NCBI GenBank assembly: GCA_944320495.1
Contig: CALUHR010000013.1
Location: 96,001-160,000 of the forward strand
Direction: 5' to 3'
Length of the DNA stretch: 64,000 bases
Source of the DNA: Candidatus Methanomethylophilaceae archaeon
GTDB taxonomy: Archaea > Thermoplasmatota > Thermoplasmata > Methanomassiliicoccales > Methanomethylophilaceae
In this document: piece by piece, positions 528-64,000 of the stretch
Layout: every line of letters begins with the position of its first letter
Numbering within the stretch: the stretch's first letter is position 1
Program-made: the position numbers and the translations under genes
The notes under the pieces: generated by a model
Told to the model about the DNA's origin: nothing
The model's database searches: none
The model's input: only the letters and a program-made list of their open reading frames with translations

Positions 528-1799
528 ATGAGCGGCTTCGGACTGACCAGGACCGAGAGGTCCTGGGTCATGTACGACGTGGGGAACTCCGCGTTCACCC
601 TGATGCTCTCGACCATCATCCCGATCTACTTCAACTCGGTCGCGGGCGAGGAGCTCTCGTCCGTAGACTATCTGGCATACTGGGGATACGCCGCCTCTAT
701 CGCCACCCTCCTGTGCGCCGTCCTCGGGCCCGTGCTCGGAGCCTACTCAGACCGCAGCGGCCTGAGGATGAGGATGTTCGTGGCCGCCCTCGGGGTCGGC
801 GTGATCGGATGCGCCCTTCTGGGATTCATCAGCGCATGGCTGGCCTTCCTGGTGGTGCTAGTGGTGACGAGGCTCGGATACTCCCTGAGCCTGGTGTTCT
901 ACGACTCGATGCTCGTGGACGTCACCACACCGTCCCATTCCGACAGGGTCTCCGCGGCCGGATACGCGTGGGGGTACATCGGCAGCTGCGTGCCGTTCGT
1001 CGCCTGCCTGGTCCTCATCCTCGGATGTGATTCGTTCGGCATGACCATGGGCCAGGCGATGACCGTGTCCCTCATCGTAATCGCCGCGTGGTGGGTCGCC
1101 GCCAGCATCCCGCTCGTGAAGAACTACAAGCAGATCCACAGCGTCGACGCGAGGTCCGAGGGGGCGCTCCGCACCCTCGCGAGGACGATCCGCAACGCCA
1201 GGGGAGAGAGGAAGGCGTTCGTCTTCCTCGTCGCGTTCTTCTTCTACATCGACGGGGTCTACACGATCATCGAGATGGCCACCGCCTACGGGCAGTCCAT
1301 GGGCCTCGACACAACGATGCTGCTCGTCGCACTTCTGGTGACACAGGTGGTGGCGTTCCCGTTCACCATCGCCTTCGGCAGGATGTCGACCAGGTTCGAC
1401 ACGTCCAGACTCATCATGGTCTGCATCGTGGCGTACATGCTCATCACGGTCGTCGCGTTCTTCATGACGTCCATCACCCAGTTCTTCGCGCTGGCCGTCA
1501 TGGTCGGGATGTTCCAGGGAGGGATCCAGGCGCTCTCCAGGTCCCACTTCTCCAGGATCATCCCGCCGGAGAGGGCGGGCGAGTTCTTCGGGCTCATGGA
1601 CATCTTCGGCAAGGGGGCGTCCTTCACTGGGACACTGGTGGTCTCCGCGGTCAGCCAGCTGACCGGACAGACCTCCTTCGGGATCCTGTCCCTCGTGGCG
1701 CTCTTCGCGATAGGTCTGGCACTGTTGGTCGTGTCATCCCGTACGCCTTCGAACAGGGATCATTCGGACACGGCGTGCACGGAGGCGCAATCGGCTTGA
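528..1799 (+). CDS. MFS transporter, UMF1/Atg22-like family
   Basis: 423 aa, ~12 hydrophobic segments, N-terminal SWVMYDVGNSAF and FYDSML motifs; TGA stop. Confidence 0.85.
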   Translation: MSGFGLTRTERSWVMYDVGNSAFTLMLSTIIPIYFNSVAGEELSSVDYLAYWGYAASIATLLCAVLGPVLGAYSDRSGLRMRMFVAALGVGVIGCALLGFISAWLAFLVVLVVTRLGYSLSLVFYDSMLVDVTTPSHSDRVSAAGYAWGYIGSCVPFVACLVLILGCDSFGMTMGQAMTVSLIVIAAWWVAASIPLVKNYKQIHSVDARSEGALRTLARTIRNARGERKAFVFLVAFFFYIDGVYTIIEMATAYGQSMGLDTTMLLVALLVTQVVAFPFTIAFGRMSTRFDTSRLIMVCIVAYMLITVVAFFMTSITQFFALAVMVGMFQGGIQALSRSHFSRIIPPERAGEFFGLMDIFGKGASFTGTLVVSAVSQLTGQTSFGILSLVALFAIGLALLVVSSRTPSNRDHSDTACTEAQSA

Positions 1800-1824
1800 A
1801 CCAGCCGGCGATGGAAGTGACGAT

Positions 1825-2616
1825 ATGCCGTCGACTTACGCCCACCTGAGACTCGGACGCGAAGTGCTCGAGAGGCTCGATGGAGAGCCCCGCAGGGTCT
1901 GCGAGGAGCATGGGGGCCTGTACCTGATAGGCCTGCACGGCCCGGACATCCTGTTCTACTACGATGCGCTTCACAGGAACCCCGTCAGCTCGGTGGGCTT
2001 CGGGATGCACGACAGACCGGGGAGGGAGCTGTTCGAGCGCGCGAAGGCCTCGCTCCCGGAAACAGGGGACGCGGGCAGGGCGTACGCTTACGGGTTCGCC
2101 TGCCACTTCGCGCTGGACAGTGAGGCACACCCGTACATCGAGGAGTACATCCATGCCCACGGGGTGGCCCACACGGCCATCGAGGGGGAGTTCGACAGGA
2201 TGCTGCTCGAGAGGGACGGCATCGAACCCAAGAGGGCGTACCTCGCCGGCCACATATCCGCCGATGAGAGTGACTGCAAGGTGATCTCCAGGTTCTTCCC
2301 CGGCGTGACCCCGGAGCAGGTCTCCAGGGCCCTGGAGGACATGAGGAGGTACAACAGGCTCCTGGTCGCCCCGGGGAGATTCAAAAGATGGGTCATCGAG
2401 CGCACCCTGAGGAGGAGCGGGAACTACGATGACATGATTGGCCTGGTCCTGAGGAACGAGCCGGACCCCCGGTGCGGGGAGAGCGACAGGGAGCTGGACC
2501 GCATCTACGACGGGGCGGTCGCCCTGTCGGTGGGGCTCATCGGCGACCTCGAGAGGTACTTCGACGGCTCCGCCGAGCTTCCCCCGAGGTTCGACAGGAC
2601 CTTCTCCTACATGTGA
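1825..2616 (+). CDS. Zinc-dependent phospholipase C family protein
   Basis: MPSTYAH...GLHGPDILFY...GFACHFALDSEAHPYI...HTAIE pattern; TGA stop. Confidence 0.8.
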   Translation: MPSTYAHLRLGREVLERLDGEPRRVCEEHGGLYLIGLHGPDILFYYDALHRNPVSSVGFGMHDRPGRELFERAKASLPETGDAGRAYAYGFACHFALDSEAHPYIEEYIHAHGVAHTAIEGEFDRMLLERDGIEPKRAYLAGHISADESDCKVISRFFPGVTPEQVSRALEDMRRYNRLLVAPGRFKRWVIERTLRRSGNYDDMIGLVLRNEPDPRCGESDRELDRIYDGAVALSVGLIGDLERYFDGSAELPPRFDRTFSYM

Positions 2617-2620: not shown

Positions 2621-4522
2621 TCGGACCCGCCCGACCCTCATGGTGGCCACCGGGCGGTCCCTCATGAAGCCGCTCACAACGATGTCGTACATCAGGTCGC
2701 GGTTGTCCCTGTAGGCGTCCATGACCGCCTCCGCCCTGCGGACGCACTCCGCCTCGTACGGGTCCAGGCCGGACACGTCCATCTCGGCCATCTCCACCTC
2801 GGAGTCCAGGTCCTCAGACATGGCCTCCCTGACCTTCGCCCTGCAGGCCTCCGACATCCCCGGGACGGACCTGTAGAGGGAGGAGCACTGCATGGACAGG
2901 GAGTCCTGCCTCATCATGAACCTCCTCAGCATCGGATCCGAGTCGCGGTCGGCGTTGATGAGCATCTTCTGGGAGACGCTGGCGGAGATTATCGCCAGCC
3001 CGGCCTCCTCCTCGGAGTCGTCCCTCCCGTCCAGCATGTCGCGGATGTTGCGGATCCTCTCGAGGCCTATGGCCAGCGAGCGGGCGGCCAGCTCCCTGTT
3101 CTCGTCGGATATCCTGTACGGGAGGACCACGCGGTTCGCGACCACGGCCACGAACACGCCGGCCAGCGTGAACAGGACGCGGTCGGCCGCCAGCGTCTCC
3201 GACGGCGAGACCATGGAGGATGCCACCAGCACCAGGATCGTGTAGAACAGCAGCCTGGTCTCGTAGCGGTCCGTCCCGACGACGACGTACGCGTAGCCGG
3301 CGAACAGTCCGACGGCCAGCATGAGTAGCGCATCGTAGCCGGCGACCGCCCACAGCACCAGGAATGCGGCGGCTCCTGCGAGCGTATGTGCCAGACGCAG
3401 CATGGATCCCCTCCACGAGTCCTCCAGGTACGGTACCACGGCGGCAACGACGGTGAACAGCATCCACTGGGCATTCTCCCATCCCCAGTACGACCATGCG
3501 AAGGCCACCAGGGCGAACATCAGGCCCATGCGGACACCGAAGGTGAACCTCGCCGAGTCCCTGCGGGCCTCCTCGCGGAGGGTCCGGATGACGGCGCGGA
3601 CGGTCGGGAGCCTGCCCTCACCGTACTCGCCCTCGGCCCCGGACTCCAGGGACTCCAGGCATCTGGCCATCTCCCTCAGCGCGATGACCGTGGATCTGCC
3701 GGCATCCGGATTGGAGGCCAGGAGCGCGTCGACCGCGGAGCGCACCGCGGAGGCCCCCACCTCGCCCGTCTCATGGGACGACACGATGGACATCAGCGGC
3801 CTCATGCCCCTCAGGACCCCTTCCGACCTCTCCGTCCTGCAGACAGAGCGGCCCACGTCCATGAGGGCCACGACCAGGTCGAGAACCCTCCTATCGCGCG
3901 GCGTGGTAAAGAAGTTGCCCTTCAGACGGTCGTACATCATACGATTCATGTCCGTGCACAGACGACCGAGGTCGGCCACGCTTGGCTCCCCTCCGTCCAG
4001 CACCTCGTCCGCGCACCTGGAGACCTCGTCGCATATGGCGATGACCCCGCGGTGACTGGAGCTGACCCTGCTGCCGCGATTCACCATCACGTTGAGCGCG
4101 ACGATGAAGACGGCGCTGACTGCCAGCACGAGCAGGCGGTCGGGCATCTCCTCCAGGGTCACGGGGAGCGTGACCATCGAGGCGTAGAACAGCAGCATGG
4201 GGAAGTGCATCGGGGAGCGGAGGTCCTGCATGGAGACGAAGACCACCACGAACACTACCACGAAGTTGACCGCGAGACCGAGGAACGGGTCCAGGGACGC
4301 CACGAAGGCCCCCAGACCCATGAAGACCATGAAGACCATCAGGCTCGCGAGATTCGAGAACGGGCGCGACGACAGGTCCTTCGAGAGCATCAGCATCGCG
4401 GCCGAGGAGACGGTGATCCCCAGCAGGGCGTAACGGGTCCCGAAGAGGAACAGGAACACCGCCATGAAGGCGCATATGACGGCGAACGTGAGCGTCTTGC
4501 CTCCCAAGGTCCTGCCGTCCAT
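2621..4522 (-). CDS. FUSC/YccS-like membrane protein (ends at CGA 2623-2621)
   Basis: Two hydrophobic blocks with AVVPY...SMLRLAHTLAG and ADRVLFTLAG motifs. In-frame CGA at codon 634 lies 4 nt from the convergent PLC stop; the standard-code ORF runs to 2537. Confidence 0.75.
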
Positions 4523-4601: not shown

Positions 4602-5504
4602 ATGAGGTCCGCGCTCCTGATACTGCCCATCCTTTCGGGTGTGATGTGGGGCGCAGCGGGGATATTCGTCCGCACACTCTCGGAGTACGGCTTCGACGGT
4701 CAGACCATCGCGTTCTCGCGCGTGCTCATCGCCATGGCCATGATGCTCCTGCTGATCCTGGCAACCGACAGGAGGATGCTCTCGTTCAGGAGGCGCGACA
4801 TCTGGCTGTTCGTCCTGTGCGCGGTGTCGATGACGGGGCTGAACGTGTTCTACACCATAGCCGCCGACGAGCTCTCGCTCTCCCTGGCGGCTGTCCTGCT
4901 CAGCCTGTCCCCGGTGTTCATGGTCCTCATCGCCCGCGTCATATTCGGCGAGGCCATCACCAGGCGCAAGGTGTTCTGCATAGCCGTATCCATCGTGGGA
5001 TGCGTCCTGGTGAGCGGATACCTCGAGAACGAATCTACGCTCTCGATGTTCGGCATCGCGTCAGGAATAGTCGCGGCGGTGTTCTACGCCGTCTACGGAA
5101 TAGCGTCGAAGAAGGCCTCCGCCAGCGGCTACAGCGTCTACACCACGCTGTTCTACTGCATGCTGATCTCCATGGTCATCCTGATCCCGTTCTCAGACCT
5201 CGGCATCGTGGCCGACTACGCGGGCGAGGGGGCCTGGGAGATCGGATTCCTGGTACTGCAGGCGGCGGTGGCATCGTTCCTGCCGTACATCCTGTACTCG
5301 GTGGCGATGGCGCGCATCGAGGCGGGCACGGGGTCGCTCCTGGCGGCCTGCGGGGAGCCGGTGGCGGCCGCCGTGTTCGGACTCCTGGTGTTCGCGGAGG
5401 TGCCGAGCCCGATCATGGTTGTCGGCATGGCCCTCGCCATCGGGGCGATGGCCACGATATGCATGAACCCCAAGAGGGAGGGGAACCTCGCGGAGGATCA
5501 TCGA
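4602..5504 (+). CDS. EamA/DMT family transporter (ends at CGA 5502-5504)
   Basis: Duplicated EamA-type hydrophobic halves, 300 aa to the CGA; under the standard code it would run ~210 nt antisense into the GNAT gene. Confidence 0.85.
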
Positions 5505-5971
5505 AGAAGCGGGCGTTCCATCACGATGCGCATGAGGCCGGCCCTTCCGGACTCCCGGAACCCCTTCCTGGAGTACAGCGAGATCGCCCCGGCGTTCCTC
5601 TCGTTGACCTCCAGGACGATCGAACGCGCCCCGGAGGAGCGGGCGATCCCCTCAACGCGGTCGATGGCCCTCGAACCGAGGCCGAGGCCACGGAACCCCT
5701 CGAAGAGGTAGAGCTTGCCCAGGTGCATCGCGTCCCCCTCCATGCCATAGGCGAGATATCCGGCGCGGACCCCGCACACTGTGATCCACTCGTAGACCAT
5801 GCCCTCGGCCATCTGCCTCCTTATGCCCTCGGACGACTGCTCCTGCTCCAGGAACTCGTCGAGGAGATCGTCCGGCACGTATGAGTAGACCTCTCTGAGT
5901 AGGGAGTATGCCAGACCGGAGAGCTCGTCGGCGTCCTCGGGACCCAGGCGCATGAAACCCGCTTCGCTCAA
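5501..5971 (-). CDS. GNAT family N-acetyltransferase (CGA 5503-5501 immediately followed by TGA 5500-5498)
   Basis: KLYLFEGFRGLGLGS acetyl-CoA motif and VNERNAGAISLYSRKGF; start TTG 5971 or ATG 5953. Confidence 0.85.
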
Positions 5972-6515
5972 GCAGCCTGCCCCCATCGTTCCAGTTGCCG
6001 CGGATCAGACCGCGGCGGGTGTCCGAGATGAACGAGTCCAGCCTGCTCCTGTAGGCCTCGGGCCTGTCGCGGTACAGCTGCACGTTCCCGAGCCTCACGC
6101 GGACGTACAGGTCCGGCAGGACCTGGAAGTTCTCCCAGACGACCGGGTCCGCCCTCAGCTCGTCGAGGACCGCCTCGTCCACGGAGAACGACATGTCCGG
6201 TAGGACCGCCCTGCCGGCGTCCGTCATGAGGCCCAGGCGCTCCAGCCTGCGGCAGCGCGCCTTGTTGAGCTCCGTCCATCTCGACCCCTTGCGGGGAGAG
6301 AACCTCTGGACAGTGCCCAGCTCCGGGTCCTTCCTGACCGTGGAATCGATCCAGCCGAAGCACAGGGCCTCCTCGACCGCATCGACGTACGGCAGGATGC
6401 CCGTCTGGGCCTTCGTCCTGTCCACCGCGACCCAACAGCCCCGGGAGGACCGATGGTTGTCCTCCAGCCAGGACCTGAAACCGGCACGGTCCAGGACGAG
6501 GACGTCCTGCTCCAT
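5964..6515 (-). CDS. YdeI/OmpD-associated family protein (ends at CGA 5966-5964)
   Basis: FRSWLEDNH, YVDAVEEALCFGWIDS, RFSPRKGSRWTELNK, GLMTDAG motifs; 183 aa ending NWNDGGRLLE. Confidence 0.85.
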
Positions 6516-7273
6516 CGGATGACCCCCGGTCTGTAGCCGATGTCGAGGATCCCCTCAATGACCCTGCGGACGTCGTCCGACGCCCTGTCGGCATCTTCGC
6601 GGGACATGACCCCTCCGTCCCTAGTCTCGACCATGTGCCAGGAGTGGTCTGCGATGACGATGTCTCCCTCCGCGGAGGCGGCCATGGCGATGTAGTCCCC
6701 GGGCCCCCTCCTGCCCTCGTGCATCGGCCAGAGGTAGGCGGCGATGACCTTGCCCCCTGGATCCCTGGCCTTGTTCACGGGAAACTCGACCATGTCCTCC
6801 AGAAGGAACGGCTCCGACGGGGAGCCCACATCCGTGTAGGACGATGAGTCGTGCCTGATACCCAGGCGGCGCACGGCGCTCAGGACCCTCGCGTCGGCGG
6901 TCATGTACGGCGCACGCGAGCAGACGGGCCTGCCCACCCTGTCGGAGACAGCCGAGAAGGAACGTGCCAGCGTGCCGCGGAGATGGTCATCCCCCAGGGA
7001 AGTCAGGTCCTCGTGGTCGTAGCCGTGGACGCCTATCGAATGCCCGGCGGCGCGTGCGCAGTCTATGACCTCGGAGGTGCGGCCCTCGAAGAACAGCGTG
7101 CCGCGGATGCCGATGCCGTCGAGCAGATCCAGTATCGCGCCCAGACCCCTCTCCGAGGACGAGAAGCGGGGGGCGTCGCCGAAGCCCCTGTCCAGGGACC
7201 CGGCGGCGACCCTCCCCGGGACGCGCACGTTGACGTCCCGGTCTATGTCGGCGGTGTAGTACAGCCGTCTCAT
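6515..7273 (-). CDS. Polysaccharide deacetylase (NodB-like) (ends at CGA 6517-6515)
   Basis: TADID, GTLFFEG, IGVHGYDHE, RAPY motifs; ATGA overlap with AMP phosphorylase and CGATG overlap with the next gene; 252 aa. Confidence 0.8.
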
Positions 7274-10016: not shown

Positions 10017-10021
10017 CGAAA

Positions 10022-10948
10022 TCGCTCCCTTGAGAATATCCCGTCGCCCAGCTGCCTCACCATGACGTCATACACCGAGCCGGGACTCATCATGCCCAGC
10101 TCCGTGACGATCGCGTCTATGTACGCGGCGGGGGTGCTGTCGAACACTGGATTGAATATCTTTACCGAGTCGCGGACCTCCCCGGGCCTCACGACCTCGG
10201 AGATTTCGCGCTCCTCTATGGTCACCGAATCGCCGAACATTGTCATCGGCGAGAACTTGTAGGTCTCGGCGCAGGCGTAGAGGTGCACCCTGGCCTCGTG
10301 GGCGGCCAGCGCAAGCTGGGACGTCCCGACCTTGTTGATGAGGGCCCCCTGGGACGTGACGGTGTCGGCACCCACGAACACCTTGTCGACCTTGCGCATC
10401 ACCGAGCGCACCGCGCTGTCGATGATCAGCGTGACGTCCACGCCGGCGTCGGCCAGGTCGTTGACCGTCAGGATGCCCTGCCTCCAGGGACGGGACTCGG
10501 TTGCGTACACCCTGATGTCCTTCCCCTGCCTGTGGGCCTCCTTGATGACGCCTAGGGCGGCGCTGCTGTTGCAGTGCGTCATGATGACATCGCCGTCCTG
10601 GATCCTGCGTGCTCCGATGCGGGCGATCTCCTCCACCGCCCTCTCGGACCTTTCGCAGAATGCCTTCGCGTTGGCCAAGACCAGCGACCTTGCCTCCTCG
10701 AGGGAGGATGCCTCGGACGCGCCCCTGACCGTGGCGTGCAGCCCGTTCCACAGCGAGACCGCGGTGGGCCTCGATGCGAGGATCGTGTCGCTCGCCCCCT
10801 TCAGATCGGCGAGGAACCCCTCCAGGGTCCCCCCGGTGTACGTGTCGGCGAAGTCGCCCAGCGCGGACGCTCCCGCCCTGGCGATCCTCCCGGCCCCGCG
10901 AATCCTCATGCTGCGGATCAGCTCCGCAGTCTCCTCCGCCGTGGTCAC
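10022..10948 (-). CDS. Ribose-1,5-bisphosphate isomerase (eIF2B-alpha-like) (ends at CGA 10024-10022)
   Basis: IRGAGRIA, SRPTAVSL, MTHCNS, TESRP, VGAD, NKVGT, NPVFDSTP motifs; probable GTG start 10948; sequence reads GAG CGA TTT CG ATG(rbcL). Confidence 0.9.
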
Positions 10949-11666: not shown

Positions 11667-12157
11667 TTGCGTTGATAGACCCGACGGACAAGATGCGTTC
11701 GGAGGCCAAGATAGGCCGTGGAAGGGCTGAGAGCATCGTAGGGAACCTCAGATCGTTGAAAGTCCCTCTGCCTGCTTACAGCGAAGCAATCTGCAAAACC
11801 GGGGACTACTATCAGAAAGACAGAGATGCACGCCTGAGACTCTACGAGGAACTGGATCGCCTGAGGAGCAGGGGATTCGTCGAAGTGGAGTACATCAAAG
11901 ACCCAGAGACGCTGAGGCTCGCTTCGGAGATGGCAAGATCACGTACGGATGAACGTGACAAGATGTCGATCATGGATTCCCTGATCATCGCGACGGCGAC
12001 GTCCGATCCGGAATGCAGGACGTTCTACACCACCGATGACAAGTGCCTCCATAACAGCGAAGTCTGGGAGTTGAGCAGAGAGTTCAGGGAGAGACACGAG
12101 TTCGACAACGCGTCGATCTCCGTCCAGATGCTGTGGAAGACCAGAGCCTCTGCGTGA
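11633..12157 (+). CDS. PIN-domain protein (putative toxin RNase)
   Basis: YIDTCYLIAL, MSIMDSLIIATA and FYTTD carry the acidic PIN residues. Confidence 0.75.
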   Translation: MAVSYIDTCYLIALIDPTDKMRSEAKIGRGRAESIVGNLRSLKVPLPAYSEAICKTGDYYQKDRDARLRLYEELDRLRSRGFVEVEYIKDPETLRLASEMARSRTDERDKMSIMDSLIIATATSDPECRTFYTTDDKCLHNSEVWELSREFRERHEFDNASISVQMLWKTRASA

Positions 12158-14070: not shown

Positions 14071-14730
14071 ATGCGCAAGTACGACCTCGTCTGCTTCGAC
14101 ATGGACGGAACCCTCACCACCGTACGCAGCTCCTGGAGATGGATCCACGACTACCTGGGCGTGGACAACGAGCCGTCCTATCAGGCGTTCATCAACGGGG
14201 AGATAGACGAGAACGAGTTCATGCGCAGGGACATCCACCTCTGGATGGAGAACAGGCCCGGGATCACCATCGGCGACATCGCCCACATCTTCCAGACCCT
14301 GCCACTGATCGGCGGAATACAGGAGACCGTCGCCTGCCTCAAGGACAACGGAATCGCCTGCGTCATCGTCAGCGGTGGGATCGACATCGCCGCGAAGATG
14401 CTCGCGGACGAGTTCGGCTTCGACGAGTACATCGCGGACAGCCTCGAGACCGATTCCGAGGGCAGGCTCACCGGCGAGGGTATCAGGAACCTGAACCTCC
14501 GCGACAAGGGGATCAACGTCAGAGGGTACATCGAGAAGTACTTCACGACCCCCGAGCGCACCGTGTCCATCGGCAACTCGTACACGGACATACCGATGTT
14601 CCAGAACTCCGGACTCTCCATCGCGTTCAACCCGACGGACGAGTACACATCGGAAGCGGCCACGCACACCGTGAACTCGGACAACATCGCGGACGTCCTC
14701 GACTTCATCATCGGGGACGGCGAGGAGCGA
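14071..14730 (+). CDS. HAD-IB phosphatase (phosphoserine phosphatase-like) (CGA 14728-14730, TGA two codons later)
   Basis: FDMDGTL, IVSGG, K, IGNSYTD HAD motifs. Confidence 0.85.
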
Positions 14731-17984: not shown

Positions 17985-18554
17985 ATGGAGTACGACCCCG
18001 ATGTCAGGATCTACGAGGATCCGGAGGTGTATCCGCCCTCGGACGACAGCATCCTGCTTATCGAATCGCTGGACGTTCATCCTGGGGAGAGGGTCCTGGA
18101 GATCGGGTGCGGATCGGGGGTGGTGTCCATCCACTGCGCCCTGAACGGATGCGACGTCACCTCTGGGGACATCAACCCCCGCGCCGTCGAGCTTACCCGC
18201 AGGAACGCGGAGGCGAACGGCGCCTACATAGACGTGGTGGAGACCGACGTCTACTCCGCCGTGGAGGGGAGGTTCGACACGATAGTGTTCAACCTGCCGT
18301 ACCTCCCGGTCGAGGAGGAGGGACTGCTGGAGAAGGCCTGGTCCGGAGGCCCTGATGGCCTCGGACCTCTGCCGAGGCTCCTGGAGGGAGCGGACGACCG
18401 CCTTCTCCCCGGAGGGAGAGTGGTGGTCGTCGTCTCGTCCCTGATGGACCGCGATGCTCTGGACGGGACCCTCGTGGGCTGGAGCCGGAGGGTCCTGGGG
18501 GAGCTCCCCCTGTTCTTCGAGAGGCTCTATGTCCTGGAGCTCAGGCGTCCGCGA
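17985..18554 (+). CDS. prmC: HemK2/PrmC-type release factor glutamine methyltransferase (ends at CGA 18552-18554)
   Basis: VYPPSDDS, EIGCGSG, FNLPYLP, WSGGPDG; ends FFERLYVLELRRP; 189 aa. Confidence 0.85.
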
Positions 18555-23792: not shown

Positions 23793-25439
23793 ATGAAGAA
23801 GGTGAACACCAGCGGGCTGTCGTTCCGGGACATCCGCGAGGGAGGGAAGTACTACGTCGACAAATCTCTCCTCATCAAGGACATGCTTGATACGGACGAC
23901 CGTGGGGTCTTCCTCTACACCCGCCCCCGCAGGTTCGGCAAGACCACCAACCTCACCATGCTCGACGCCTTCTTCAACATCGAATACAAAGGGAACACAT
24001 GGTTCGACGGGCTCGCCATCTCCGAACACCCGGACTGCATGTGCCAGATGAGCAGATATCCTGTGATACTCCTCGACCTGAAAGACCTCGCGGCCGAGGG
24101 CAACAACGATTACGGAATCTTCGTATCGAGGGTGAAGAAGGTCCTGAGCGACCTGTACAACCGCTTCACCTACCTTCTCGACTCACCGAGGATCGGTGAC
24201 AGGGACAGGAGGCTCTTCGAATCCGTCCTGTACATGGATGCCGACGAGAACGTGCTCGCGGATGCCGTCAGGGACCTATCCAGGATGCTGCACCTCTTCC
24301 ATGGGGAGCGGACGGTCATCCTGGTGGACGAGTACGACCAGTCGATAACCCAGACGTTCGGCGATGCTTTGCAGGAGCGTGTCATCGGATTCCTGAGACT
24401 CCTGCTGTCCAGCGCACTGAAGTCCAACGGCGACCTCCAGATGGCCTACGTCACGGGCGTGATGCAGGTCGCTAAGGCAGGGTTCTTCTCCGGGATGAAC
24501 AACATCAGCATCAACAACACGTTCTCCGTAGAGTCGGACGAGCGCTTCGGTTTCACCGAACCGGAGGTCAGGGACATCCTGTCGTACTACGGCCATCCGG
24601 AGAAGTTCGACGAGGCGAGGGATTGGTACGACGGGTACCGCTTCGGGGACGCCGAGGTGTACAACCCGTTCAGCATAATGACCTACGTCCAGAGGGGATT
24701 CCAACCGGACAGCTACTGGCGCGACTCGAGCAGGAACACCCCAATGTTGTGGATGCTGGAGAGGGCCGGCGCCATAGGGTTGCAGGCCGTTGCGGACCTG
24801 GTCAACGGCGGGACCATGGTGTCCGAGCTCCATCGGACGGTGAGCTACGACGAGATGAGACTCAACGACCCCGTCGACCTGCTCTCTCTGATGGTCATGA
24901 CCGGATACCTGAACGCCATCCCTAAGGGGGACGGACTCTACGAGCTGTCCGTCCCCAACAGGGAGGCCATGGGCATCGTGGATTCGCTCCTGAGCAGGAA
25001 CAGGCGCATCGGGAACGATGCGTTCGAGAGGTTCAACGCCGCGGTGCTGGACGGGGATGCGGCGGCCATGACGGAAGTCCTCCAGAGCGTCCTCGCCGAT
25101 GGCAGCTACTTCTCGCTGAGGGACGAGTCGTCGTATGAGAACATAGTCCTCACGATGATGCACGGGATGCTTCGCGGGTACAGGATAACCTCCCAAAAGG
25201 AGTCCGGGAACGGGAGAGCGGACCTCGTGCTGGAACTGAGGGACGAGGGGTCCGTTCCCATAATCCTCGAGCTGAAGGTGTCGGACTCGGAGGGCTCCCT
25301 CGATTCCGACGCTGAGAGCGCGATAGCACAGATCCACGACAAGAACTACTATCTCGGCATGAGGGGCGACGTCATACTGATCGGCCTCGCGTTCCGCGGC
25401 AAGCTCGTCCGCGGGAAGGTCGAGAGGCTCCGCCTGCGA
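23793..25439 (+). CDS. AAA-ATPase-like protein with PD-(D/E)XK (PDDEXK_9-like) C-terminus (ends at CGA 25437-25439)
   Basis: YYVDKS, RPRRFGKT, LVDEYD, WYDGY...YNPFS, ESGNGRADL, ILELK, AIAQIHDKNY; ends GKVERLRL. Confidence 0.88.
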
Positions 25440-25492: not shown

Positions 25493-26038
25493 ATGACCGC
25501 GCGCGACGATCCCGACGTCAGGGACAGCAGGCTGATGAGCAGGATACTGCGCCACTGCCCCGAGAGATACGGGGTCGCCCTGGACCGCGACGGGTGGGCA
25601 TCGGTGGAGGGGCTCAGCAGGGGCTCCGGACTCCAGGCGGAGCGCATAATCCGCATAGCGGAGACCAACACCAGGTACGAGCTGTCCCCCGACGGAGGGA
25701 GGATAAGGGCGCTCCACGGCCACAGCGTCGACGTCGGATACGGGGCGCCCGTGTCCCCTCCGGACGTGCTCTACCACGGCACCAGCAGGGAGAACCTGAA
25801 GGGGATCATGGCCTCGGGTGCGATACTCCCGATGAGGCGCACCATGGTCCACCTGTCGGTCTCCGTGGAGAGGGCGGAGGAGGTCGGCAGGAGGCACGGT
25901 GAGCCCGTCGTCATATCCGTGGATGCCAGGAGGATGGCCGGGAGCGGGTTCGAGTTCTTTCTCTCGGGGGACGGGGTGTACCTCACGGAGAGGGTGCCGA
26001 CGGGATACTTCCTGGTCGTGACCGATATGGGGGATCGA
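25493..26038 (+). CDS. kptA: RNA 2'-phosphotransferase Tpt1/KptA (ends at CGA 26036-26038)
   Basis: SRILRH, IRALHGHS, LYHGT, RRTMVHLS, VYLTERVP; 181 aa. Confidence 0.9.
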
Positions 26039-26380
26039 TCGCAGGGTCCTGTCGATCCTGTGTATCTCCTCGTACTGCTCTAGGACCTCGCCGTCCTCGC
26101 GCATCTCGCCGCAGATGATGAAATCGGCGGCCTGCAGATGGTTGGCCACCCTCGTCCCGCCGGGGGTGATCGTGTAGAACCTCGTGACGTGCTTCCCCGT
26201 CTCGAGGTATGTGTCGGCCATTCCCAGCTCGACGAGCCTGCGGCCGATCCTGGAGGCCGTGGTGTAGTTCGAACCGAACCTGTAGAGGTCGCCCTCCTTG
26301 ATGCGGCCCTTGTAGCTCAGAAACATGATGGCATCCGCTATGTACCTTTCCGACAACGGGGATACATCGTTGCGTGCCAC
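26039..26380 (-). CDS. Small winged-helix DNA-binding protein (ends at CGA 26041-26039)
   Basis: HTH-like core TTASRIGRRLVELGM followed by wing FYTITPGGTRVANHL; 113 aa; its stop abuts the kptA stop. Confidence 0.6.
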
Positions 26381-32271: not shown

Positions 32272-33665
32272 TACCGATTAGCGGAAGGACTGATGTCCTG
32301 ATACAGTGGTTCTCCGACGAGTTCATCAAGAAGAACGAGAAGGTGTTCGAGAAGATCACCGTCGGACCCGGAGAGGTCCTGATCATCATCAAGGACGGCA
32401 AACCCTCTGACACGTACCTCGAATCCTCGGTCAAACTGGCCGGGGACGGGTTCCTCGCCAAGTTCCGCGAGAAGCTGAAGGGCGTGAACAACCAGGTCCT
32501 CATGGCCGACCTCAGGCCCTTCGCCGCCAGGATCGGCATCCACGGGTACACCAAGGACAGGACGGAGATCGAGGGCGCCATGAACCTCACCGTCCGCGTC
32601 TCCAAGGAGAACATGGTCCGCCTGTCCAGCCTCTACACCAGGGACCTCCTCTCCGACGAGAAGTGGAAGGACATGCGCGGCAAGGTCAAGGAGGTGACCC
32701 GCGAGGACATCGAGAACATCCTCCGCTACGACACCGAGCTGACCGTCGACTCGTCCGTACTGACCCAGACCCTCTCCTCCGACATCAGGGACCATCAGGA
32801 CGTCTTCAACGCCCGCGTGAGGAACGCCATCGACTCGATGACCCCCGTCTGGGCGAACTGCGGCCTCGCGGTGGACGTCGTCAAGGTGGACATCGAGAAG
32901 AACGCCTACGAGGACGCGATGCGCTACCACGACGAGCAGTCCAAGGCCCAGATGATCATGGACGCGGACTTCGAGACCGCCGCCCACGAACTGGGGCTCG
33001 AGATGGACTACGGCATCCTCTTCGTCAGGAAGGAGGCCGAGAAGAGGCTCGAGGAGGAGAAGGGGAAGTACGACGTCCAGAACTTCTAGTTCACCAAGGA
33101 GATGGAGGACGAGCTCGCCAAGACCGATCACGAGATCGAGCTGCGGCGCCGCGACATCATCTCCAAGCTGGAGTTCGCCAAGGTCCAGGCCGACATCGAC
33201 CACATCAACAGCGTCAGCGACGACGAGATCCGGCGCAGGAAGGCGGACACCGACGCGTACGTCGAGATGGCCCAGATCAAGAACGACGAGTACGTGAAGG
33301 ACCAGGACGTCCGCAGACAGATCGAGATCATGCAGGCCCAGAGGGACATAGAGATCCAGAACGCCTACGAGGACGGTAGGAAGAACGGCAAGCAGCTCGC
33401 CGAGGACGGCGCCTTCGACATGGGGTACAGCAGGGGATACGCCGACGGACTGAAGGAGGCCATGAGGAACGGCTCCGGACAGACCGTCGTAATGCCCGGA
33501 TACGGGATGCCCCCCGCCTACGGCTACCCTCCGGCCCCTCCGTACCAGGGAGGGTATGACGACCGCCGCCGGTACGACGACTACGACGACCGCAGGTACA
33601 GGGACGATGACAGGCGCTACGACGACGACCGCCGCCAGCCGAGGCGCGGGGACGACAGGGAGTGA
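32268..33665 (+). CDS. SPFH/band-7-like coiled-coil protein read through an in-frame TAG (33087-33089; candidate Pyl)
   Basis: ORFs 32268-33089 and 33102-33665 share a frame, linked by TAG TTC ACC AAG GAG ATG; the coiled-coil pattern continues across; would be 465 aa. Confidence 0.7.
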
Positions 33666-37561: not shown

Positions 37562-38002
37562 TCGCTCTCCCTCGAGCACCTTCCTGGCCCTGGCGTACTT
37601 CTCCCTCCAGTGCAGGATCCTCTCCTCCGACACGTCCGGGCATCCCGAGAAGCGCGTCTCATCGGAATTGTGGTCCATGTCCGCCCTCTTCACGGCCCTG
37701 GCCACGGGGTTCTCCCTCACAGCCCTGACATAGTCGAGATAATCCACATCCCTCCCGTGCGTCAGCAGACGGACGGCGTCCACCACCTCCTTGGGAAACT
37801 CCCTCTCCAGGTCCTCGAACGTCACGTCCGTGTCCTCCACCACGTCGTGCAGCAGCGCCACGCATGTCGTGACCTCGTCGGTCATCTGCTCCGCCACGTG
37901 GAACGGATGGAACACGTACGGCACGCCCGTCTCGTCGAACTGTCCGTGGTGGGCCTCGTAGGCGATGCGCATGGCCTTCCTGGTGAGCGGCGTGTAGATC
38001 AT
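37562..38002 (-). CDS. HD-domain protein, Mesh1/SpoT hydrolase-like (ends at CGA 37564-37562)
   Basis: AHHGQFD..GVPYVFHP, ALLHDVVEDT, VKRADMDHN; 146 aa ending RKVLEGE. Confidence 0.82.
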
Positions 38003-43250: not shown

Positions 43251-43251
43251 A

Positions 43252-48972: not shown

Positions 48973-49892
48973 GTCGCATACTTGTCACCGGAGGACTTGG
49001 ATTCATCGGAACCAACCTGACCCTCAGGCTATTGAAATCAGGTGACGAAGTGGTGGTCATAGATAATGCGTATACCTCCAGCCTGGAGCGTATTTCTGCA
49101 TTCGAAGAATACGATGGATTCGAATTCATAAACCAAGATGTAACAACGCCTTTTGATGAACTGAACGTTGATGGCATCTATCATCTGGCCGCACCTGCAT
49201 CTCCGATAAAATACTCCAGAAATCCGGCGTATACCGTCAGAACCATCGTGGAAGGCGCGTTCAATGCATTGGAATGCGCGAGGAACAATGATTGCCGCAT
49301 ACTGGTTGCGTCCACCAGCGAGATTTATGGTGAGTGTGAAAAACACCCTCAGAGCGAAACGTACAACGGCAATGTTTGCACCATGTCCACAAGAGCCTGT
49401 TACGATGAGGCCAAAAGATGCGCAGAGACGGTCTCATTCTGCTATCATGAGACATATGGCGTAAACGTCGTCTGCCCCCGTATTTTCAACACGTATGGGC
49501 CATACATGCAGCTTGATGACGGCCGTGTGATGACCTCATTCATCAGTTCGCTTCTGAAATCAGAACCCCTGAGGATTTTTGGAGATGGGGAACAGACGAG
49601 ATCGTTCTGCTACATCGACGACCTGCTCGACGGTTTAGAACTTGTATTCTCATCCTCACTGAAAGGCAAAGCCATCAACATCGGCAATGATTTCGAGATA
49701 TCAATAAACAAATTGGCGGACATATTCGAAGAGATCTGCGGAAGGAGCTTTGAAAGAATCTATGAGAAACGCATGGACCACGAACCGATGAACAGGTGTC
49801 CCGACCTTAGCCTTATCCGCAACACACTAGGTTACAGACCGAGGATGAACATCCGCGACGGCCTGACTCGTATGGTTGAGTTCTACAGGCGA
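48969..49892 (+). CDS. UDP-glucuronate decarboxylase-like NAD-dependent epimerase/dehydratase (ends at CGA 49890-49892)
   Basis: TGGLGFIG, HLAAPASP, STSEIYG, CYDEAKR, RIFNTYGP, QTRSFCY; ends LTRMVEFYR, 4 nt before the next ATG. Confidence 0.88.
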
Positions 49893-51701: not shown

Positions 51702-52993
51702 CCGTGACGCCTAGATCAAATGATGGCCTTTCGATAATCATCATTACACATAACAATGAATATATTGTAAGAGTTGTGGAGGCCGTATTGGAACAGATCT
51801 CACCGGTAGACGAGGTCATACTTGTGAATGATCATTCGGATGAAAGATTCCTAAGCGGCATCCCCACACATCCATCATTGAAGATTGTAACACCGGTGAT
51901 GGAGGGCAACAGGAGCCATAATAGGAATATCGGTGCTGAACTCTCATCCCGCGGAATCCTAGTCTTTATCGATGGGGATGTCCTAATCCAAGAAGGATCG
52001 CTATCTTGTATACGCGATACGGGTAAACATACACCCCTCACCTTCAATGTCATGGCACAGTCAATCACTCTGGAACAGTTGTGTATGCTGAATCAGAGAA
52101 CGGACATTATGAACGCCGTACTGAACAAGAGATTCGAGTATCTGGATCACCTCGACGGTATGCGTGATTGGCGCTTGGATGATTCACCCTACGGTCCTGA
52201 CATGGAGGATTGGTGCGTGTTCTACACATTGTTCTGTTCCATCCCAAAACATCTCTTCGTTCAGGCAGGAGGATTCGACGAATCCATTCACGGATGGGGC
52301 TGTGAAGACGTGGATCTTGGATTCAGACTGAAACGGATGGGAGCGAACATACATTTCATCGAAACAATTCGTGCTATACACATTCCACACCCCCGTAACA
52401 ACTACATTCAGAACTTGAATGGACGCAGGAATCTCTACCATATGCTCCAAAGATACAGGGATATCGACATTGAACGCGTGATAGCATTCGGCACATCATG
52501 TATGGTCAGATCTGCTTTATCGAACATACTCGAGAAATGCTCATCCATGGATGATACGAGTATAATACCGTCAGATTGTGATTTGATTCTCACATTTCGT
52601 TCTGGAAATCCAGTCTTGATAGTACGCGATAAAGACAGAAAAACCGAATGGCCATCAATGGGTCTAGCTATACCGTTTGAGAACACCCACTTTCATCAAG
52701 CGTACATTTCTGAGAATTACTTCCTGCTCCCTGAAGGATTATATTGCAGGGTTCTTCAGGAACTGTGTCGCGTTTCGAAGTATGTGATTACAAGATGTCC
52801 CGATAGAAAAAACAGACCGACATTCGATAGATGGGTTCATGACTCTTTGAAACACGCATACTGCTACACAGATATCATCCATCTATCCAATCAAATCAGG
52901 GATTTTTCATTCCAAAACAACGGAGAGTACATCGAAGTTTCATATCAGCCTGGATTTGATAATAGTCGCGAACCTAACATGTTGAATGATCGA
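51698..52993 (+). CDS. GT2 glycosyltransferase with C-terminal extension (ends at CGA 52991-52993)
   Basis: SIIIITHN, VNDHS, FIDGD, GGFDE..HGWGCEDVD; the standard-code ORF would run through the direct repeat into hipA antisense. Confidence 0.8.
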
Positions 52994-56446: not shown

Positions 56447-57219
56447 CGGACATAGCCGTCAGGGTCGCCTACCGCGGCGAGGGGTTCTACGGGTCGCAGA
56501 TGCAGCCCAGGCTCCCCACCGTGGAGGGGACCCTGCTGGCGAACATCGTCCGCGTGACCGAGATGGATCCGGAGGACGTGTGCCTCAGGCTCGCCAGCCG
56601 CACGGACAAGGGGGTCAGCGCCACAGGCAACGTCGCATCCTTCGAGAGCGGCGGCGCCGACCCCGTCAACCTTCTAAAGGCCCTCAACTCGGTGCACGGC
56701 GGCGTGCTGTGCACCGCCTACGCCGAGGTGGACGACGACTTCACGCCGCGCCACGCGGACCGCAGGACATACGAGTACGTAGCCAAGGCCCGCGGGCTCG
56801 ATGCGGACGTGGCGAACGAGTGCCTCTCCATGTTCCGCGGGAGGAGGGACTTCTCCGGCTTCTGCAAGGCCGAGGGGAAGGACCCTGTCATCGACCTCAC
56901 GAGGGCGGACGCCGTCGTGGACGGCGACGTCCTGATAATGACCTTCGAGGCGGACCACTTCCTCTGGAACATGGTCCGCAGGATATCCGCCGCGGTCCTC
57001 CGCGCGGCATCCGGCAGGATGCCCGTGTCCAGGATCGAGGAGGCCCTCGCCGGCGGATGGTCCAACTTCGGGATAGCCCCGGCCGAGGGGCTGACCCTCA
57101 CCGACGTGTTCTACGATGGGATGGGGTTCATCCCATCCCCCGACCCGGCCCTCGCGTACAGGAAGGCGGACGGACTATACTCGGCGAGGCTCGCCGAGAG
57201 GTTCTACGGGAAGCTCCGA
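56443..57219 (+). CDS. truA: tRNA pseudouridine synthase A (ends at CGA 57217-57219)
   Basis: AYRGEGFYGSQ, ASRTDKGVS, RTYEY, DFSGF, FLWNMVRRI, APAEGL; 258 aa ending FYGKL. Confidence 0.92.
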
Positions 57220-57297: not shown

Positions 57298-58125
57298 TCA
57301 GCGCCTGGACTTGGGCTTGCCGTAGTTCTTCACGGGCTTCCTGTAGACCCAGATGATGACCAGGGCCAGCAGGATGATCACGATCACGAGGAGCGCGACC
57401 CACATGGTGTAGCTGCTGTCTCCGATGTAGAAGGTGTACTCCTCACCGAGACCGCTGATGGTCACCATGTTGCCGTCGTCGGCCGGCTGCAGGGAGAAGG
57501 TGTAGGCACCCTCTCCGGCGTCGGTGACCCAGTCGTAGGTGACGGTGGTGGATCCCTCCTTCGCGAGGTCGAAGGTGGTGAAGCTGTCCTCGATCCTCTC
57601 GCCGTTGACGTAGAAGTACACGCCGTACCCGGTGAGGTCCTGCCCGGACTCGTTGGTCAGGGTGACGCTCAGGGTGATGGGCTCGACGACCTTGATGTCG
57701 AAGGTGTCCTCCTTGGCGAGGTCCTCGGCGGGGATGTCGACGGTCTCGCCCTCATCATCGGTGTAGGATGCCTCCACGTCGTAGGTGACTATCAGCCTGT
57801 AGCTTCCGGCGGTGTCCGGGGCATCGACGGAGAGGGTGGCGGAGCCACCGTTGTCGAGGTCCCCGGAGCTGGGGCTGACGCCGTTGCTGACGGTCTCGCC
57901 GGACGAGTCCACGAGCTTCGCATCGTAGGAGATGGCCATGGAGAGGTCCTGGTACGAGTCGTAATCGTGGTTGGTGTAGGTGATCGTGTACTCCGCGTCG
58001 TCCCCGGTGCCGACGACCGGGTCGCCGTCCACGTTGGAGTAGACGGCGTCGGTCTCGGCGATGGGCACGAGGCAGGCGACGAGGATCGCCGCGAGGGCGA
58101 CCACAGCGATTGTCTTGATGTTCAT
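57298..58125 (-). CDS. Secreted, C-terminally anchored Ig/CARDB-like surface protein
   Basis: Signal peptide MNIKTIAVVALAAIL, beta-rich acidic body, C-terminal TM and basic tail; ATGA-coupled to the upstream gene. Confidence 0.7.
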   Translation of the reverse strand: MNIKTIAVVALAAILVACLVPIAETDAVYSNVDGDPVVGTGDDAEYTITYTNHDYDSYQDLSMAISYDAKLVDSSGETVSNGVSPSSGDLDNGGSATLSVDAPDTAGSYRLIVTYDVEASYTDDEGETVDIPAEDLAKEDTFDIKVVEPITLSVTLTNESGQDLTGYGVYFYVNGERIEDSFTTFDLAKEGSTTVTYDWVTDAGEGAYTFSLQPADDGNMVTISGLGEEYTFYIGDSSYTMWVALLVIVIILLALVIIWVYRKPVKNYGKPKSRR

Positions 58126-63725: not shown

Positions 63726-63860
63726 TCTAATAAGTCTCCGTCTCTTTAGAATGGCCGTTCATACAGGAACCTCTATAAAAAGGGCACCCTGGGTCATTTT
63801 ATTATAATAAGAACGCGCGCGCACCCACACACGATACGCGCGATTGGGTTTGACCGCCCG

Positions 63861-64000
63861 TCAGAGCACGGTGCGTATGTCCTCGGCGAAGGCCTGCGCT
63901 GCCCCGCGGGGGTCCTCCGCGCCGTAGATCGAACGGCCCACGATGGCGTAGTCGGCTCCGGCCGCGATGGCGTCCGAGGCCTTCCCGCCCTGGGCGCCGA
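63861..64000 (-). CDS. pyrF: Orotidine-5'-phosphate decarboxylase, C-terminal part
   Basis: Hand translation [34 protein letters not shown]...; TGA at 63863-63861. Confidence 0.93.

What the first reader, a model, noticed from the sequence alone, without database searches (positions are those of the whole stretch)
528..63863. No gene ends in TAA or TAG; the stop set looks like YGA
By my count ~41 complete genes end in TGA and 16 in CGA, with none in TAA or TAG, even among the A/T-richer island genes. Inference: the release factor may have lost UAR recognition (freeing UAG for pyrrolysine, comparable to UGA-only ciliate eRF1) and relaxed first-base specificity. CAG and CAA remain ordinary Gln codons here, so the relaxation is specific to NGA. 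An alternative is that the TAA stops were systematically replaced by CGA, which this window alone cannot exclude.
Basis: partly seen in the sequence, partly recalled or inferred. Interest (0 to 1): 0.8.

Follow-up and report, generated by a model that had tools for sequence, protein, structure and literature searches.

The report
Arginine codon CGA ends genes
In this gut methanogen (Methanomethylophilaceae, Methanoprimaticola-like genus) the arginine codon CGA has vanished from inside genes and instead ends about a quarter of them where relatives have TGA, which would be the first sense-to-stop change of the genetic code in a free-living organism; the release-factor gene keeps one conserved in-frame CGA.

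Summary
In the window I count about 39-41 genes ending in TGA, 16 in CGA and none in TAA or TAG. Genome-wide, of 1572 confident genes, 1128 end in TGA, 379 in CGA, 49 in TAA and 16 at TAG. The CGA codons are in the public assemblies and in independent assemblies of relatives.

Four results show that CGA terminates:
- Coding signal stops at CGA as it does at TGA.
- Reading through would make 165 gene overlaps of more than 60 nt, against 1 if CGA is a stop.
- Pfam domains end before the CGA.
- Orthologues in sister species have TGA at the same codon.

- TAA is still a rare stop.
- TAG is a sense codon (PylS is present; Code-34-like).
- CGA stops derive from TGA, not TAA.

New points on mechanism:
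- Every aRF1 gene of the family (78 of 78) keeps at least one in-frame CGA. In this genus it is codon 78.
- tRNA-Arg(UCG) is retained, but only in this genus has a broken 31-39 pair.

I read this as aRF1 competing with a detuned tRNA at CGA, with prfB-like feedback. That part is inferred.

Other windows of this genome, and a methanogen virus, were already reported by this scan with the same reading. I found no paper that establishes it.

The parts
2621..2623 (-). CGA terminator of the FUSC_2-like membrane protein gene (4522 down to 2624)
   Evidence: Coding signal ends here. The Pfam domain lies upstream. Read-through would run 28 codons into the convergent gene that ends at 2616. The G018 orthologue also has CGA.
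5502..5504 (+). CGA terminator of the EamA transporter gene (4602-5501)
   Evidence: Same codon is CGA in L003 and L005; L004 and L007 end 'CGA TGA'. The read-through form of 369 aa is the one in public databases.
5501..5503 (-). CGA directly followed by TGA (5498-5500) at the end of the GNAT acetyltransferase gene. It shares the palindrome TCGA with the convergent EamA stop.
   Evidence: Sequence read; Pfam.
5964..5966 (-). CGA terminator of the DUF8412/OmdA-like gene (6515 down to 5967)
   Evidence: Read-through would add 103 codons across the next gene. The G018 orthologue has CGA.
6515..6517 (-). CGA terminator of the polysaccharide deacetylase gene (7273 down to 6518). It overlaps the next gene's ATG as CGATG.
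   Evidence: Seven related assemblies have TGA at this codon. G018, G009, G013 and G010 have CGA; G015, G004 and G006 have TGA. Cluster mates are 252 aa, the CGA-truncated length.
10022..10024 (-). CGA terminator of the IF-2B family (ribose-1,5-bisphosphate isomerase-like) gene
   Evidence: The Pfam profile (2-280 of 280) ends 20 residues before the CGA. Orthologues in G010, G006 and G015 end in TGA.
12113..12115 (-). CGA terminator of the methionine sulfoxide reductase (PMSR) gene
14728..14730 (+). CGA terminator of the HAD hydrolase gene, with TGA two codons later
18552..18554 (+). CGA terminator of a small methyltransferase (MTS) gene
25437..25439 (+). CGA terminator of the AAA-ATPase_like/PDDEXK_9 gene (23793-25436)
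26036..26041 (.). Hexamer CGATCG: the CGA stop of the Tpt1/KptA gene (+, 26036-26038) abuts the CGA stop of a convergent unknown gene (-, 26039-26041)
   Evidence: It is one of 28 exactly abutting convergent pairs in the genome, 27 of which involve CGA.
37562..37564 (-). CGA terminator of the HD_4-domain gene (38002 down to 37565). TAA follows 10 codons later.
49890..49892 (+). CGA terminator of the NAD-dependent epimerase/dehydratase gene in the low-GC island. The next gene's ATG is at 49897.
   Evidence: The Pfam GDP_Man_Dehyd profile (1-332 of 332) ends at residue 302 and the CGA is codon 308 of the 48969 start (309 of the open frame from 48966).
52991..52993 (+). CGA terminator of a GT2 glycosyltransferase gene in the low-GC island
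   Evidence: Read-through to TAG at 53431 would overlap the convergent HipA_C-like gene.
57217..57219 (+). CGA terminator of the pseudouridine synthase gene
33087..33089 (+). In-frame TAG inside a strongly coding frame (32268-33665): candidate pyrrolysine codon
   Evidence: Coding score is 0.81 per codon before the TAG and 0.70 after it. The signal continues after it. No Pfam hit.

Best explanation
In this archaeon CGA is no longer an ordinary arginine codon. At gene ends it terminates translation, alongside UGA and a few UAA, while UAG is a sense codon (pyrrolysine).

Shown: CGA stops arose by T-to-C transition from TGA stops, in a genus in which sense CGA had already been purged.

Inferred: the single aRF1 recognises CGA, a pyrimidine-GA signal, in competition with a retained tRNA-Arg(UCG). 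That tRNA is the only one in the genome with a broken 31-39 pair, giving a 4-bp anticodon stem.

Inferred: the aRF1 gene keeps one in-frame CGA (codon 78, always followed by C) that must be read as Arg to make full-length factor. That would give negative feedback like the in-frame UGA of bacterial prfB: much aRF1 truncates its own synthesis, little aRF1 lets the tRNA win.

My odds: CGA terminates at gene ends, about 0.9. Termination is by aRF1 itself, about 0.6. The aRF1 CGA is an autoregulatory sensor, about 0.5.
For: 1. Coding signal collapses after 477 of 521 in-frame CGA codons, as after TGA.
2. Gene census: 1128 TGA, 379 CGA, 49 TAA, 16 TAG.
3. Of 379 CGA-ended genes, 1 overlaps a neighbour by more than 60 nt if CGA stops; 165 do if it is read through.
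4. The few CGAs with coding signal on both sides are junctions of same-frame genes: SIS|HAD and FAA_hydrolase|PurS.
5. Orthologous stops are TGA in G015, G006, G004 and G013, and CGA in G018 and G010. TGA maps to TGA almost always.
6. Other families of the order use CGA as a normal sense codon: G031 54 of 72 continue, G025 39 of 67. Within the family, sense CGA is kept in some genera and nearly absent in others. In this genus CGA ends range from about 1% to 38% of CGA+TGA ends.
7. aRF1 codon 78 is CGA in 20 of 21 genus members while neighbouring synonymous sites vary. The other 18 conserved Arg columns use AGG, CGC, AGA or CGT. All 78 family aRF1 genes have at least one CGA and 62 have exactly one.
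8. Among 45 tRNAs only tRNA-Arg(UCG) has a 31-39 mismatch. Of the 16 genus members read, 15 have it and the sixteenth (G015) has C33 instead of the universal U33. The stem is canonical in five other genera of the family and in three other families. Compensatory changes in the stem show the gene is kept.
9. Precedent: yeast eRF1/eRF3 can decode CGA as a stop in competition with tRNA-Arg (PMC7379694).
Against: - A cognate tRNA-Arg(UCG) gene is retained and looks functional. In classical sense-to-stop or unassigned codons the tRNA is lost, so CGA stops may be leaky.
- aRF1 keeps NIKS and YxCxxxF. I found no substitution that tracks CGA-stop use: G28S occurs only in G000 and G018, and Q53, A56 and N112 are wider than the CGA-stop clade.
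- There is no protein-level or ribosome-level evidence. All termination evidence is comparative and statistical, and part of it rests on a home-made codon model.
- One flavodoxin-like gene has a CGA inside its domain.
- The +4 base after CGA stops is U in 54%, which I cannot explain beyond the CGATG overlaps.
Confidence: 0.8

Rival explanations
1. CGA is a 'hungry' or effectively unassigned codon. The detuned or scarce tRNA-Arg(UCG) makes ribosomes stall, and the peptide is released by a rescue route (Pelota/ABCE1 plus a hydrolase, or drop-off), not by aRF1 reading CGA.
For: The tRNA anomaly is specific to the genus. aRF1 codon-reading motifs are unchanged. Pelota is present.
Against: Rescue-type release at a quarter of all genes would be slow and costly. 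A CGA conserved in the release-factor gene in 78 of 78 family members points to the factor itself. CGA and TGA interchange freely at orthologous ends. Yeast eRF1 can read CGA.
Confidence: 0.15
2. C-to-U editing of the mRNA turns CGA into UGA at gene ends, as happens in plant organelles.
For: At genome level it gives the same signature: CGA where relatives have TGA.
Against: About 97,600 CGA trinucleotides lie in all frames. Editing is not frame-aware, so it would need about 380 site-specific events in a 1.8 Mb genome while sparing the in-frame CGA of aRF1. I know of no mRNA editing in archaea (own knowledge).
Confidence: 0.03
3. CGA is still translated as Arg everywhere, and the long extensions and fusions predicted by table 11 are real proteins.
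For: This is how the public annotation reads it. tRNA-Arg(UCG) exists.
Against: 165 overlaps of more than 60 nt. Loss of coding signal after CGA. Orthologues stop there with TGA. Pfam domains end before CGA. Sense CGA is virtually absent inside genes.
Confidence: 0.02

Closest known systems
Sense-to-stop reassignments in organelles (NCBI tables 2, 22, 23: AGA/AGG in vertebrate mitochondria, UCA in Scenedesmus mitochondria, UUA in Thraustochytrium mitochondria; own knowledge)
   Same: A sense codon disappears from reading frames and appears at gene ends in place of standard stops.
   Different: This is the chromosome of a free-living (gut) archaeon with about 1,600 genes. The cognate tRNA gene is retained. 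The codon differs from UGA only at the first base. The release-factor gene itself carries the codon in frame.
Genetic Code 34 (all TAG = pyrrolysine) in Methanomethylophilus alvi and other archaea (bioRxiv 10.1101/2024.09.30.615893)
   Same: Same family. TAG is in frame in coding regions, PylS is present, and TAG is virtually unused as a stop.
   Different: That paper describes TGA and TAA as the only stops and does not mention CGA. Here CGA is a major terminator. In my 80-kb sample of the M. alvus-sized genome (G097), CGA is nearly absent and its few occurrences are ambiguous.
Suspected CGA stop in two hydrothermal-vent archaeal assemblies with CGG=Trp (Melnykov 2026, bioRxiv 10.64898/2026.04.02.715157)
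   Same: CGA is absent from conserved domains in an archaeon, and the author raises the idea that it may be a stop.
   Different: A different lineage, CGG is reassigned there, and no tRNA(UCG) was found. The paper states that its method cannot infer stops and leaves the question open.
Autoregulation of bacterial RF2 (prfB) by an in-frame UGA (own knowledge: Craigen and Caskey 1986)
   Same: A release-factor gene contains, in frame, a codon that the factor itself would terminate at. Full-length synthesis needs recoding, which gives feedback.
   Different: Here recoding would be plain decoding by a cognate tRNA, not a +1 frameshift. It concerns archaeal aRF1, not bacterial RF2. Nothing has been tested.
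eRF1/eRF3 misdecoding of CGA in yeast (PMC7379694) and 4-bp anticodon-stem tRNAs in stop-codon reassignment (PMC13092985; Blastocrithidia, own knowledge)
   Same: An eRF1-type factor can compete with tRNA-Arg at CGA. A shortened anticodon stem changes the decoding behaviour of a tRNA in lineages with altered stop codons.
   Different: In yeast this is a minor side reaction. In the known cases the 4-bp stem belongs to tRNA-Trp(CCA) and promotes reading of UGA. Here it is tRNA-Arg(UCG) and its effect is unknown.

Membership tests
Sense-to-stop codon reassignment | The codon is absent from conserved sense positions inside genes | tested here: met
   6 of 521 continue. The ones I inspected are gene junctions, except aRF1 and one flavodoxin-like gene.
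Sense-to-stop codon reassignment | The codon sits at gene ends where orthologues have standard stops | tested here: met
   TGA in sister species at the same codon.
Sense-to-stop codon reassignment | Read-through gives implausible gene overlaps or fusions | tested here: met
   165 overlaps against 1. Fused SIS|HAD and FAA_hydrolase|PurS.
Sense-to-stop codon reassignment | The cognate tRNA is lost | tested here: not met
   tRNA-Arg(UCG) is present in all genus members examined, with a 31-39 mismatch or, in G015, C33.
Sense-to-stop codon reassignment | Protein ends at the codon (peptide or ribosome evidence) | not testable with these tools
   No proteomic or ribosome-profiling data are available here.
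Genetic Code 34 (TAG = Pyl) | PylRS is present | tested here: met
   TIGR02367 hit of 260.8 bits, above the cut-off, at C9:67854-68522.
Genetic Code 34 (TAG = Pyl) | TAG lies inside coding frames and TAG stops are rare or absent | tested here: met
   12 of 16 TAGs at confident frames continue coding. The other 4 reach another stop within 0-20 codons. In the window: 33087.
Genetic Code 34 (TAG = Pyl) | tRNA-Pyl and pylBCD are present | not tested
   Not searched.
UGA-only release factor (loss of UAR reading, as in some ciliates) | UAA is no longer used as a stop | tested here: not met
   49 genes end in TAA, coding signal collapses after it, and orthologous TAA is conserved.
prfB-type release-factor autoregulation | A conserved in-frame terminator codon lies in the factor's own gene | tested here: met
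   CGA at codon 78 in 20 of 21 genus members. At least one CGA in 78 of 78 family aRF1 genes.
prfB-type release-factor autoregulation | Recoding efficiency depends on the factor's concentration | not testable with these tools
   Needs reporter or in vitro assays.
4-bp anticodon-stem tRNA | Non-Watson-Crick 31-39 pair while the rest of the stem is kept | tested here: met
   A-A, C-A or U-C in 15 of the 16 genus members read, with compensatory changes in pairs 27-30/40-43; G015 pairs 31-39 (A-T) but has C33 instead. It is the only such tRNA among 45 in the genome. The pair is canonical outside the genus.

The most novel reading that the evidence does not exclude
A free-living archaeal genus uses a four-way-altered code: stops are UGA, CGA and rare UAA, and UAG is Pyl. 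CGA is a bona fide aRF1-read stop that spread by TGA-to-CGA transitions. The system is held in balance by a detuned 4-bp-stem tRNA-Arg(UCG) and by an in-frame CGA in the aRF1 gene that acts as a prfB-like autoregulatory sensor present throughout Methanomethylophilaceae.
Probability: 0.5. Interest if true: 0.95.

Novelty: new variant of a known kind. Interest (0 to 1): 0.9.

Why it matters
- It would be the first sense-to-stop reassignment outside organelles, and an archaeal code change caught at graded stages. Within one genus CGA ends range from about 1% to 38% of CGA+TGA ends, so the path of a codon from rare sense codon to stop can be studied directly.
- It offers a natural case of an eRF1-type factor accepting C at the first stop position, and a possible archaeal counterpart of prfB feedback.
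- Practically, about a quarter of this genome's proteins in public databases are wrongly extended or fused, because table 11 reads through CGA. Gene callers and code-inference tools do not test for new stops.
- A relative appears to be in culture ('Ca. Methanoprimaticola sp. MG2'), so the claim is testable.

Tried and rejected
- Planted or artefactual CGA: rejected. The extended proteins are in public collections, and independent assemblies share the CGA ends.
- TAA-to-CGA replacement: rejected, because orthologues have TGA.
- Loss of tRNA-Arg(UCG): rejected. My first syntenic search suggested it was absent in G015 and G008, but a whole-genome search found it in G015. I did not search G008 again.
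- My first tRNA query was hand-transcribed and only 87% identical to the real gene. I used it only to locate loci, which I then re-read with ARAGORN.
- An aRF1 substitution that tracks CGA-stop use: none found. G28S occurs only in G000 and G018; Q53, A56 and N112 are broader.
- CGA stops in the M. alvus-sized genome (G097): ambiguous. The few CGAs lie 5-9 codons before a standard stop.
- Flavodoxin-like gene with CGA inside its domain: not conserved (AGG in G004 and G156), so not a second recoding site.
- Rfam and tRNA scans of the window: nothing found.
- Whether the CGATC/CGATCG context reflects a longer motif: no extended motif was seen.
Full report
WHAT THE WINDOW IS

The window is C13:96001-160000 of a 1.77 Mb, 14-contig, roughly 62% GC archaeal genome. 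aRF1 relatives carry titles such as 'Candidatus Methanoprimaticola sp. MG2' (91% identity), UBA480 and many gut or rumen 'Methanomethylophilaceae' MAGs. The order is Methanomassiliicoccales.

THE OBSERVATION

I trained a codon log-likelihood model on long ORFs of the genome with high GC3. I then called ORFs with TGA, TAA, TAG and CGA all treated as possible ends.

- Outside the low-GC island the window holds 44 confident genes: 29 end in TGA, 14 in CGA and none in TAA.
- One ends 'at TAG' (33087), but the coding signal simply continues after it.
- The 47% GC island (39-53 kb; polysaccharide-synthesis genes) adds 10 TGA ends and 2 CGA ends.

The junctions look like ordinary stop contexts:

- CGATG, a stop-start overlap, at 6513-6517.
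- CGA TGA, tandem, at 5498-5503.
- TCGA, shared by two convergent genes, at 5501-5504.

IS IT REAL DNA?

Yes. An exact-sequence look-up finds the read-through versions of four window proteins in the public collection, on the 551,930-base contig. It does not find the CGA-truncated versions. Cluster mates from other assemblies come in two lengths, for example 252 aa (the CGA-truncated length) against 308 or 349 aa. Seven independent assemblies of a related species have 'ATA TGA' where the window has 'ATC CGA'. The EamA gene ends at the same CGA in two of them and with 'CGA TGA' in two others.

DOES CGA TERMINATE? FOUR LINES OF EVIDENCE

1. Coding signal. Genome-wide, 521 in-frame CGAs follow 40 codons of strong coding signal. 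The signal collapses after 477 and continues after 6. TGA gives 1141 of 1261 collapsing. CGG, CGT, AGA, TCA and ACA mostly continue.

2. Overlaps. Of 379 CGA-ended genes, one overlaps a confident neighbour by more than 60 nt if CGA is the end. If each is read to the next standard stop, 165 do.

3. Domains. In every window case the Pfam domains end before the CGA. The rare CGAs with coding signal on both sides are junctions between separate genes in one frame: SIS then HAD phosphatase, and FAA_hydrolase then PurS.

4. Orthology. I ran tblastn of all confident genes against 30-100 kb pieces of eight species of the same genus, then read the first terminator within 3 codons of the expected end.

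| Relative | Orthologue's stop where G000 has CGA |
|---|---|
| G015 | 12 TGA, 1 TAA, 1 TAG, 0 CGA |
| G006 | 13 TGA, 1 CGA |
| G004 | 10 TGA, 2 CGA |
| G013 | 10 TGA, 4 CGA |
| G010 | 10 CGA, 3 TGA, 1 TAA |
| G018 | 9 CGA, 3 TGA |

G000 TGA ends map to TGA almost always. CGA and TGA are therefore interchangeable at gene ends, one transition apart.

THE WHOLE STOP SET

Gene-level census of 1572 confident genes:

| Stop | Genes | Share |
|---|---|---|
| TGA | 1128 | 72% |
| CGA | 379 | 24% |
| TAA | 49 | 3% |
| TAG | 16 | 1% |

- The TAA ends are followed by non-coding sequence and are conserved as TAA in orthologues. UAA reading is therefore not lost.
- Of the 16 TAGs, 12 are followed by at least 40 further strongly coding codons without any stop. 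The other four reach another stop within 0-20 codons.
- PylS is present.
- This fits the Code 34 pattern described for this family. The stop set is UGA + CGA + rare UAA.

WHERE IN THE TREE?

I applied the same test, with models trained on each sample.

- Other families of the order use CGA as a normal sense codon: G031 54 of 72 continue, G025 39 of 67.
- Within Methanomethylophilaceae, some genera keep sense CGA at about 1-3 per 1000 codons (g12, g10, g18, g20). In others it is nearly absent (g23, g16, g15, and g17, which holds the M. alvus-sized genome).
- In the window's genus, sense CGA is essentially absent everywhere. CGA ends relative to TGA ends are G015 1/72, G006 2/77, G004 8/75, G013 12/45, G018 12/21, G009 5/9 and G010 24/39.
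- The picture is a graded take-over inside one genus.

MECHANISM: WHAT THE SEQUENCES SAY

tRNA-Arg(UCG):

- The cognate tRNA-Arg(UCG) is not lost.
- It is the only one of 45 tRNAs with a non-Watson-Crick 31-39 pair, here A-A.
- Of the 16 genus members read, 15 have A-A, C-A or U-C there. Compensatory changes elsewhere in the stem show the gene is under selection. The sixteenth, G015, pairs 31-39 (A-T) but has C33 instead of the universal U33.
- Five other genera of the family and three other families have a canonical 31-39 pair.
- The 4-bp stem therefore coincides with the genus in which CGA became a terminator.

aRF1:

- There is a single aRF1. It keeps NIKS and YxCxxxF.
- Lineage-specific changes are Q53 and A56 next to NIKS, N/H/Y112, and G28S in the GTS-like loop of G000 and G018 only. 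None of them tracks CGA-stop use cleanly.

The in-frame CGA in the aRF1 gene:

- The aRF1 gene contains an in-frame CGA at codon 78, in the segment IAA-R-LKTY, between the NIKS and YxCxxxF motifs. Both halves are needed in one chain.
- That codon is CGA in 20 of 21 genus members, while the flanking Ile, Ala, Leu and Lys codons vary synonymously.
- The other 18 conserved Arg columns use AGG, CGC, AGA or CGT.
- The one exception, G005, has Lys at codon 78 and a CGA at codon 25.
- Across the family, 78 of 78 aRF1 genes have at least one CGA and 62 have exactly one. It sits at genus-typical positions: 78, 25 or 11.
- With sense CGA at 0.2-1 per 1000 codons, about 0.1-0.4 CGAs would be expected per gene.
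- Other families of the order use CGC, CGT, CGG or AGA at codon 78.
- In UBA480 the aRF1 gene itself ends in CGA where the window's genome has TGA.

HOW I THINK IT WORKS (INFERENCE)

aRF1 accepts CGA as well as UGA. tRNA-Arg(UCG) is kept because aRF1 synthesis needs it, but it is detuned. The in-frame CGA makes aRF1 synthesis fall when aRF1 is abundant, as the in-frame UGA does for bacterial RF2.

- In this genus the sensor CGA is always followed by C.
- At gene ends the next base is U in 54% of cases and C in 17%. This hints at a context effect.
- Yeast eRF1/eRF3 has been shown to decode CGA as a stop to some extent, in competition with tRNA-Arg (PMC7379694).
- 4-bp anticodon stems are known to change decoding in lineages with altered stops (PMC13092985).

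RIVALS

- Stalling and rescue without aRF1 reading CGA (about 0.15). Not excluded.
- C-to-U editing (about 0.03). About 97,600 CGA trinucleotides lie in all frames, and the aRF1 CGA would have to be spared.
- Ordinary Arg decoding (about 0.02). Contradicted by all four lines of evidence above.

WHAT IS KNOWN

- I found no paper describing CGA stops in this lineage.
- The Code 34 preprint does not mention CGA.
- A 2026 preprint only raises the possibility for two unrelated vent archaea, and says its method cannot infer stops.
- Sense-to-stop changes are otherwise known only from organelles (own knowledge; NCBI tables 2, 22, 23).

EARLIER NOTES OF THIS SCAN

After reaching these conclusions I looked up the scan's notes. 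Several other windows of this same genome were already reported with the same reading, including the CGA inside the release-factor gene. A methanogen virus was also reported to end about 30% of its genes in CGA. These are AI notes. They agree with my results but are not independent evidence. I did not test the virus claim.

CAVEATS

- The codon model and gene caller are home-made.
- Relatives were sampled at 12-100 kb each, and kin are not independent.
- Gene starts are approximate.
- CGAs within 40 codons of a gene start would escape my internal-CGA scan.
- No expression or protein data exist here.

Noticed in passing
window 39000-53000: A 47% GC island in a 62% GC genome carries polysaccharide-synthesis genes (epimerase/dehydratase, GT2 glycosyltransferases). 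All its genes end in TGA or CGA and none in TAA, and none has an internal CGA. The donor presumably uses the same code, or the island has been fully adapted to it.
   Followed up: partly
window 26036-26041; genome-wide: Convergent genes abut exactly, with zero spacer, as YGA|TCR hexamers (CGATCG, CGATCA, TGATCG) in 28 of 234 convergent pairs; 27 of the 28 involve CGA. No longer motif was seen and the pattern is unexplained.
   Followed up: partly
window 32268-33665 (+), TAG at 33087-33089: A strongly coding frame holds one in-frame TAG, making it a candidate pyrrolysine protein. It has no Pfam match.
   Followed up: partly
window 7270-11000 (-): A cluster of AMP phosphorylase, form III RuBisCO and ribose-1,5-bisphosphate isomerase (IF-2B family), i.e. 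the archaeal AMP salvage pathway. The isomerase ends in CGA.
   Followed up: no
window 58122-63725 (-): A very long, strongly coding ORF of 1867 aa. I did not examine it.
   Followed up: no
window 49890-49899 and 52991-53000: Both island CGA stops sit in the identical decamer CGATTCGATG. There are 3 copies in the window against 0.29 expected.
   Followed up: partly
L217:1537-1545 (UBA480 aRF1 locus): In this relative the aRF1 gene itself ends ...CCG AAC CGA, where the window's genome has ...CCC AAC TGA.
   Followed up: yes
G000 C8:55685 (L147:1332-1838): A Flavodoxin_4 gene has a CGA at codon 119, inside the domain. Orthologues have AGG, CAT or TTC there. It may be a recent truncation, a pseudogene or a read-through site.
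   Followed up: partly
window 53149-54312 (-): A gene with a HipA_C-like kinase domain lies at the edge of the island.
   Followed up: no
L002 (G000 C1:20449-23724): Pelota and a downstream HMGL-like (homocitrate/isopropylmalate synthase-type) gene form one 856-aa open frame under table 11. This is probably another same-frame pair separated by CGA.
   Followed up: no
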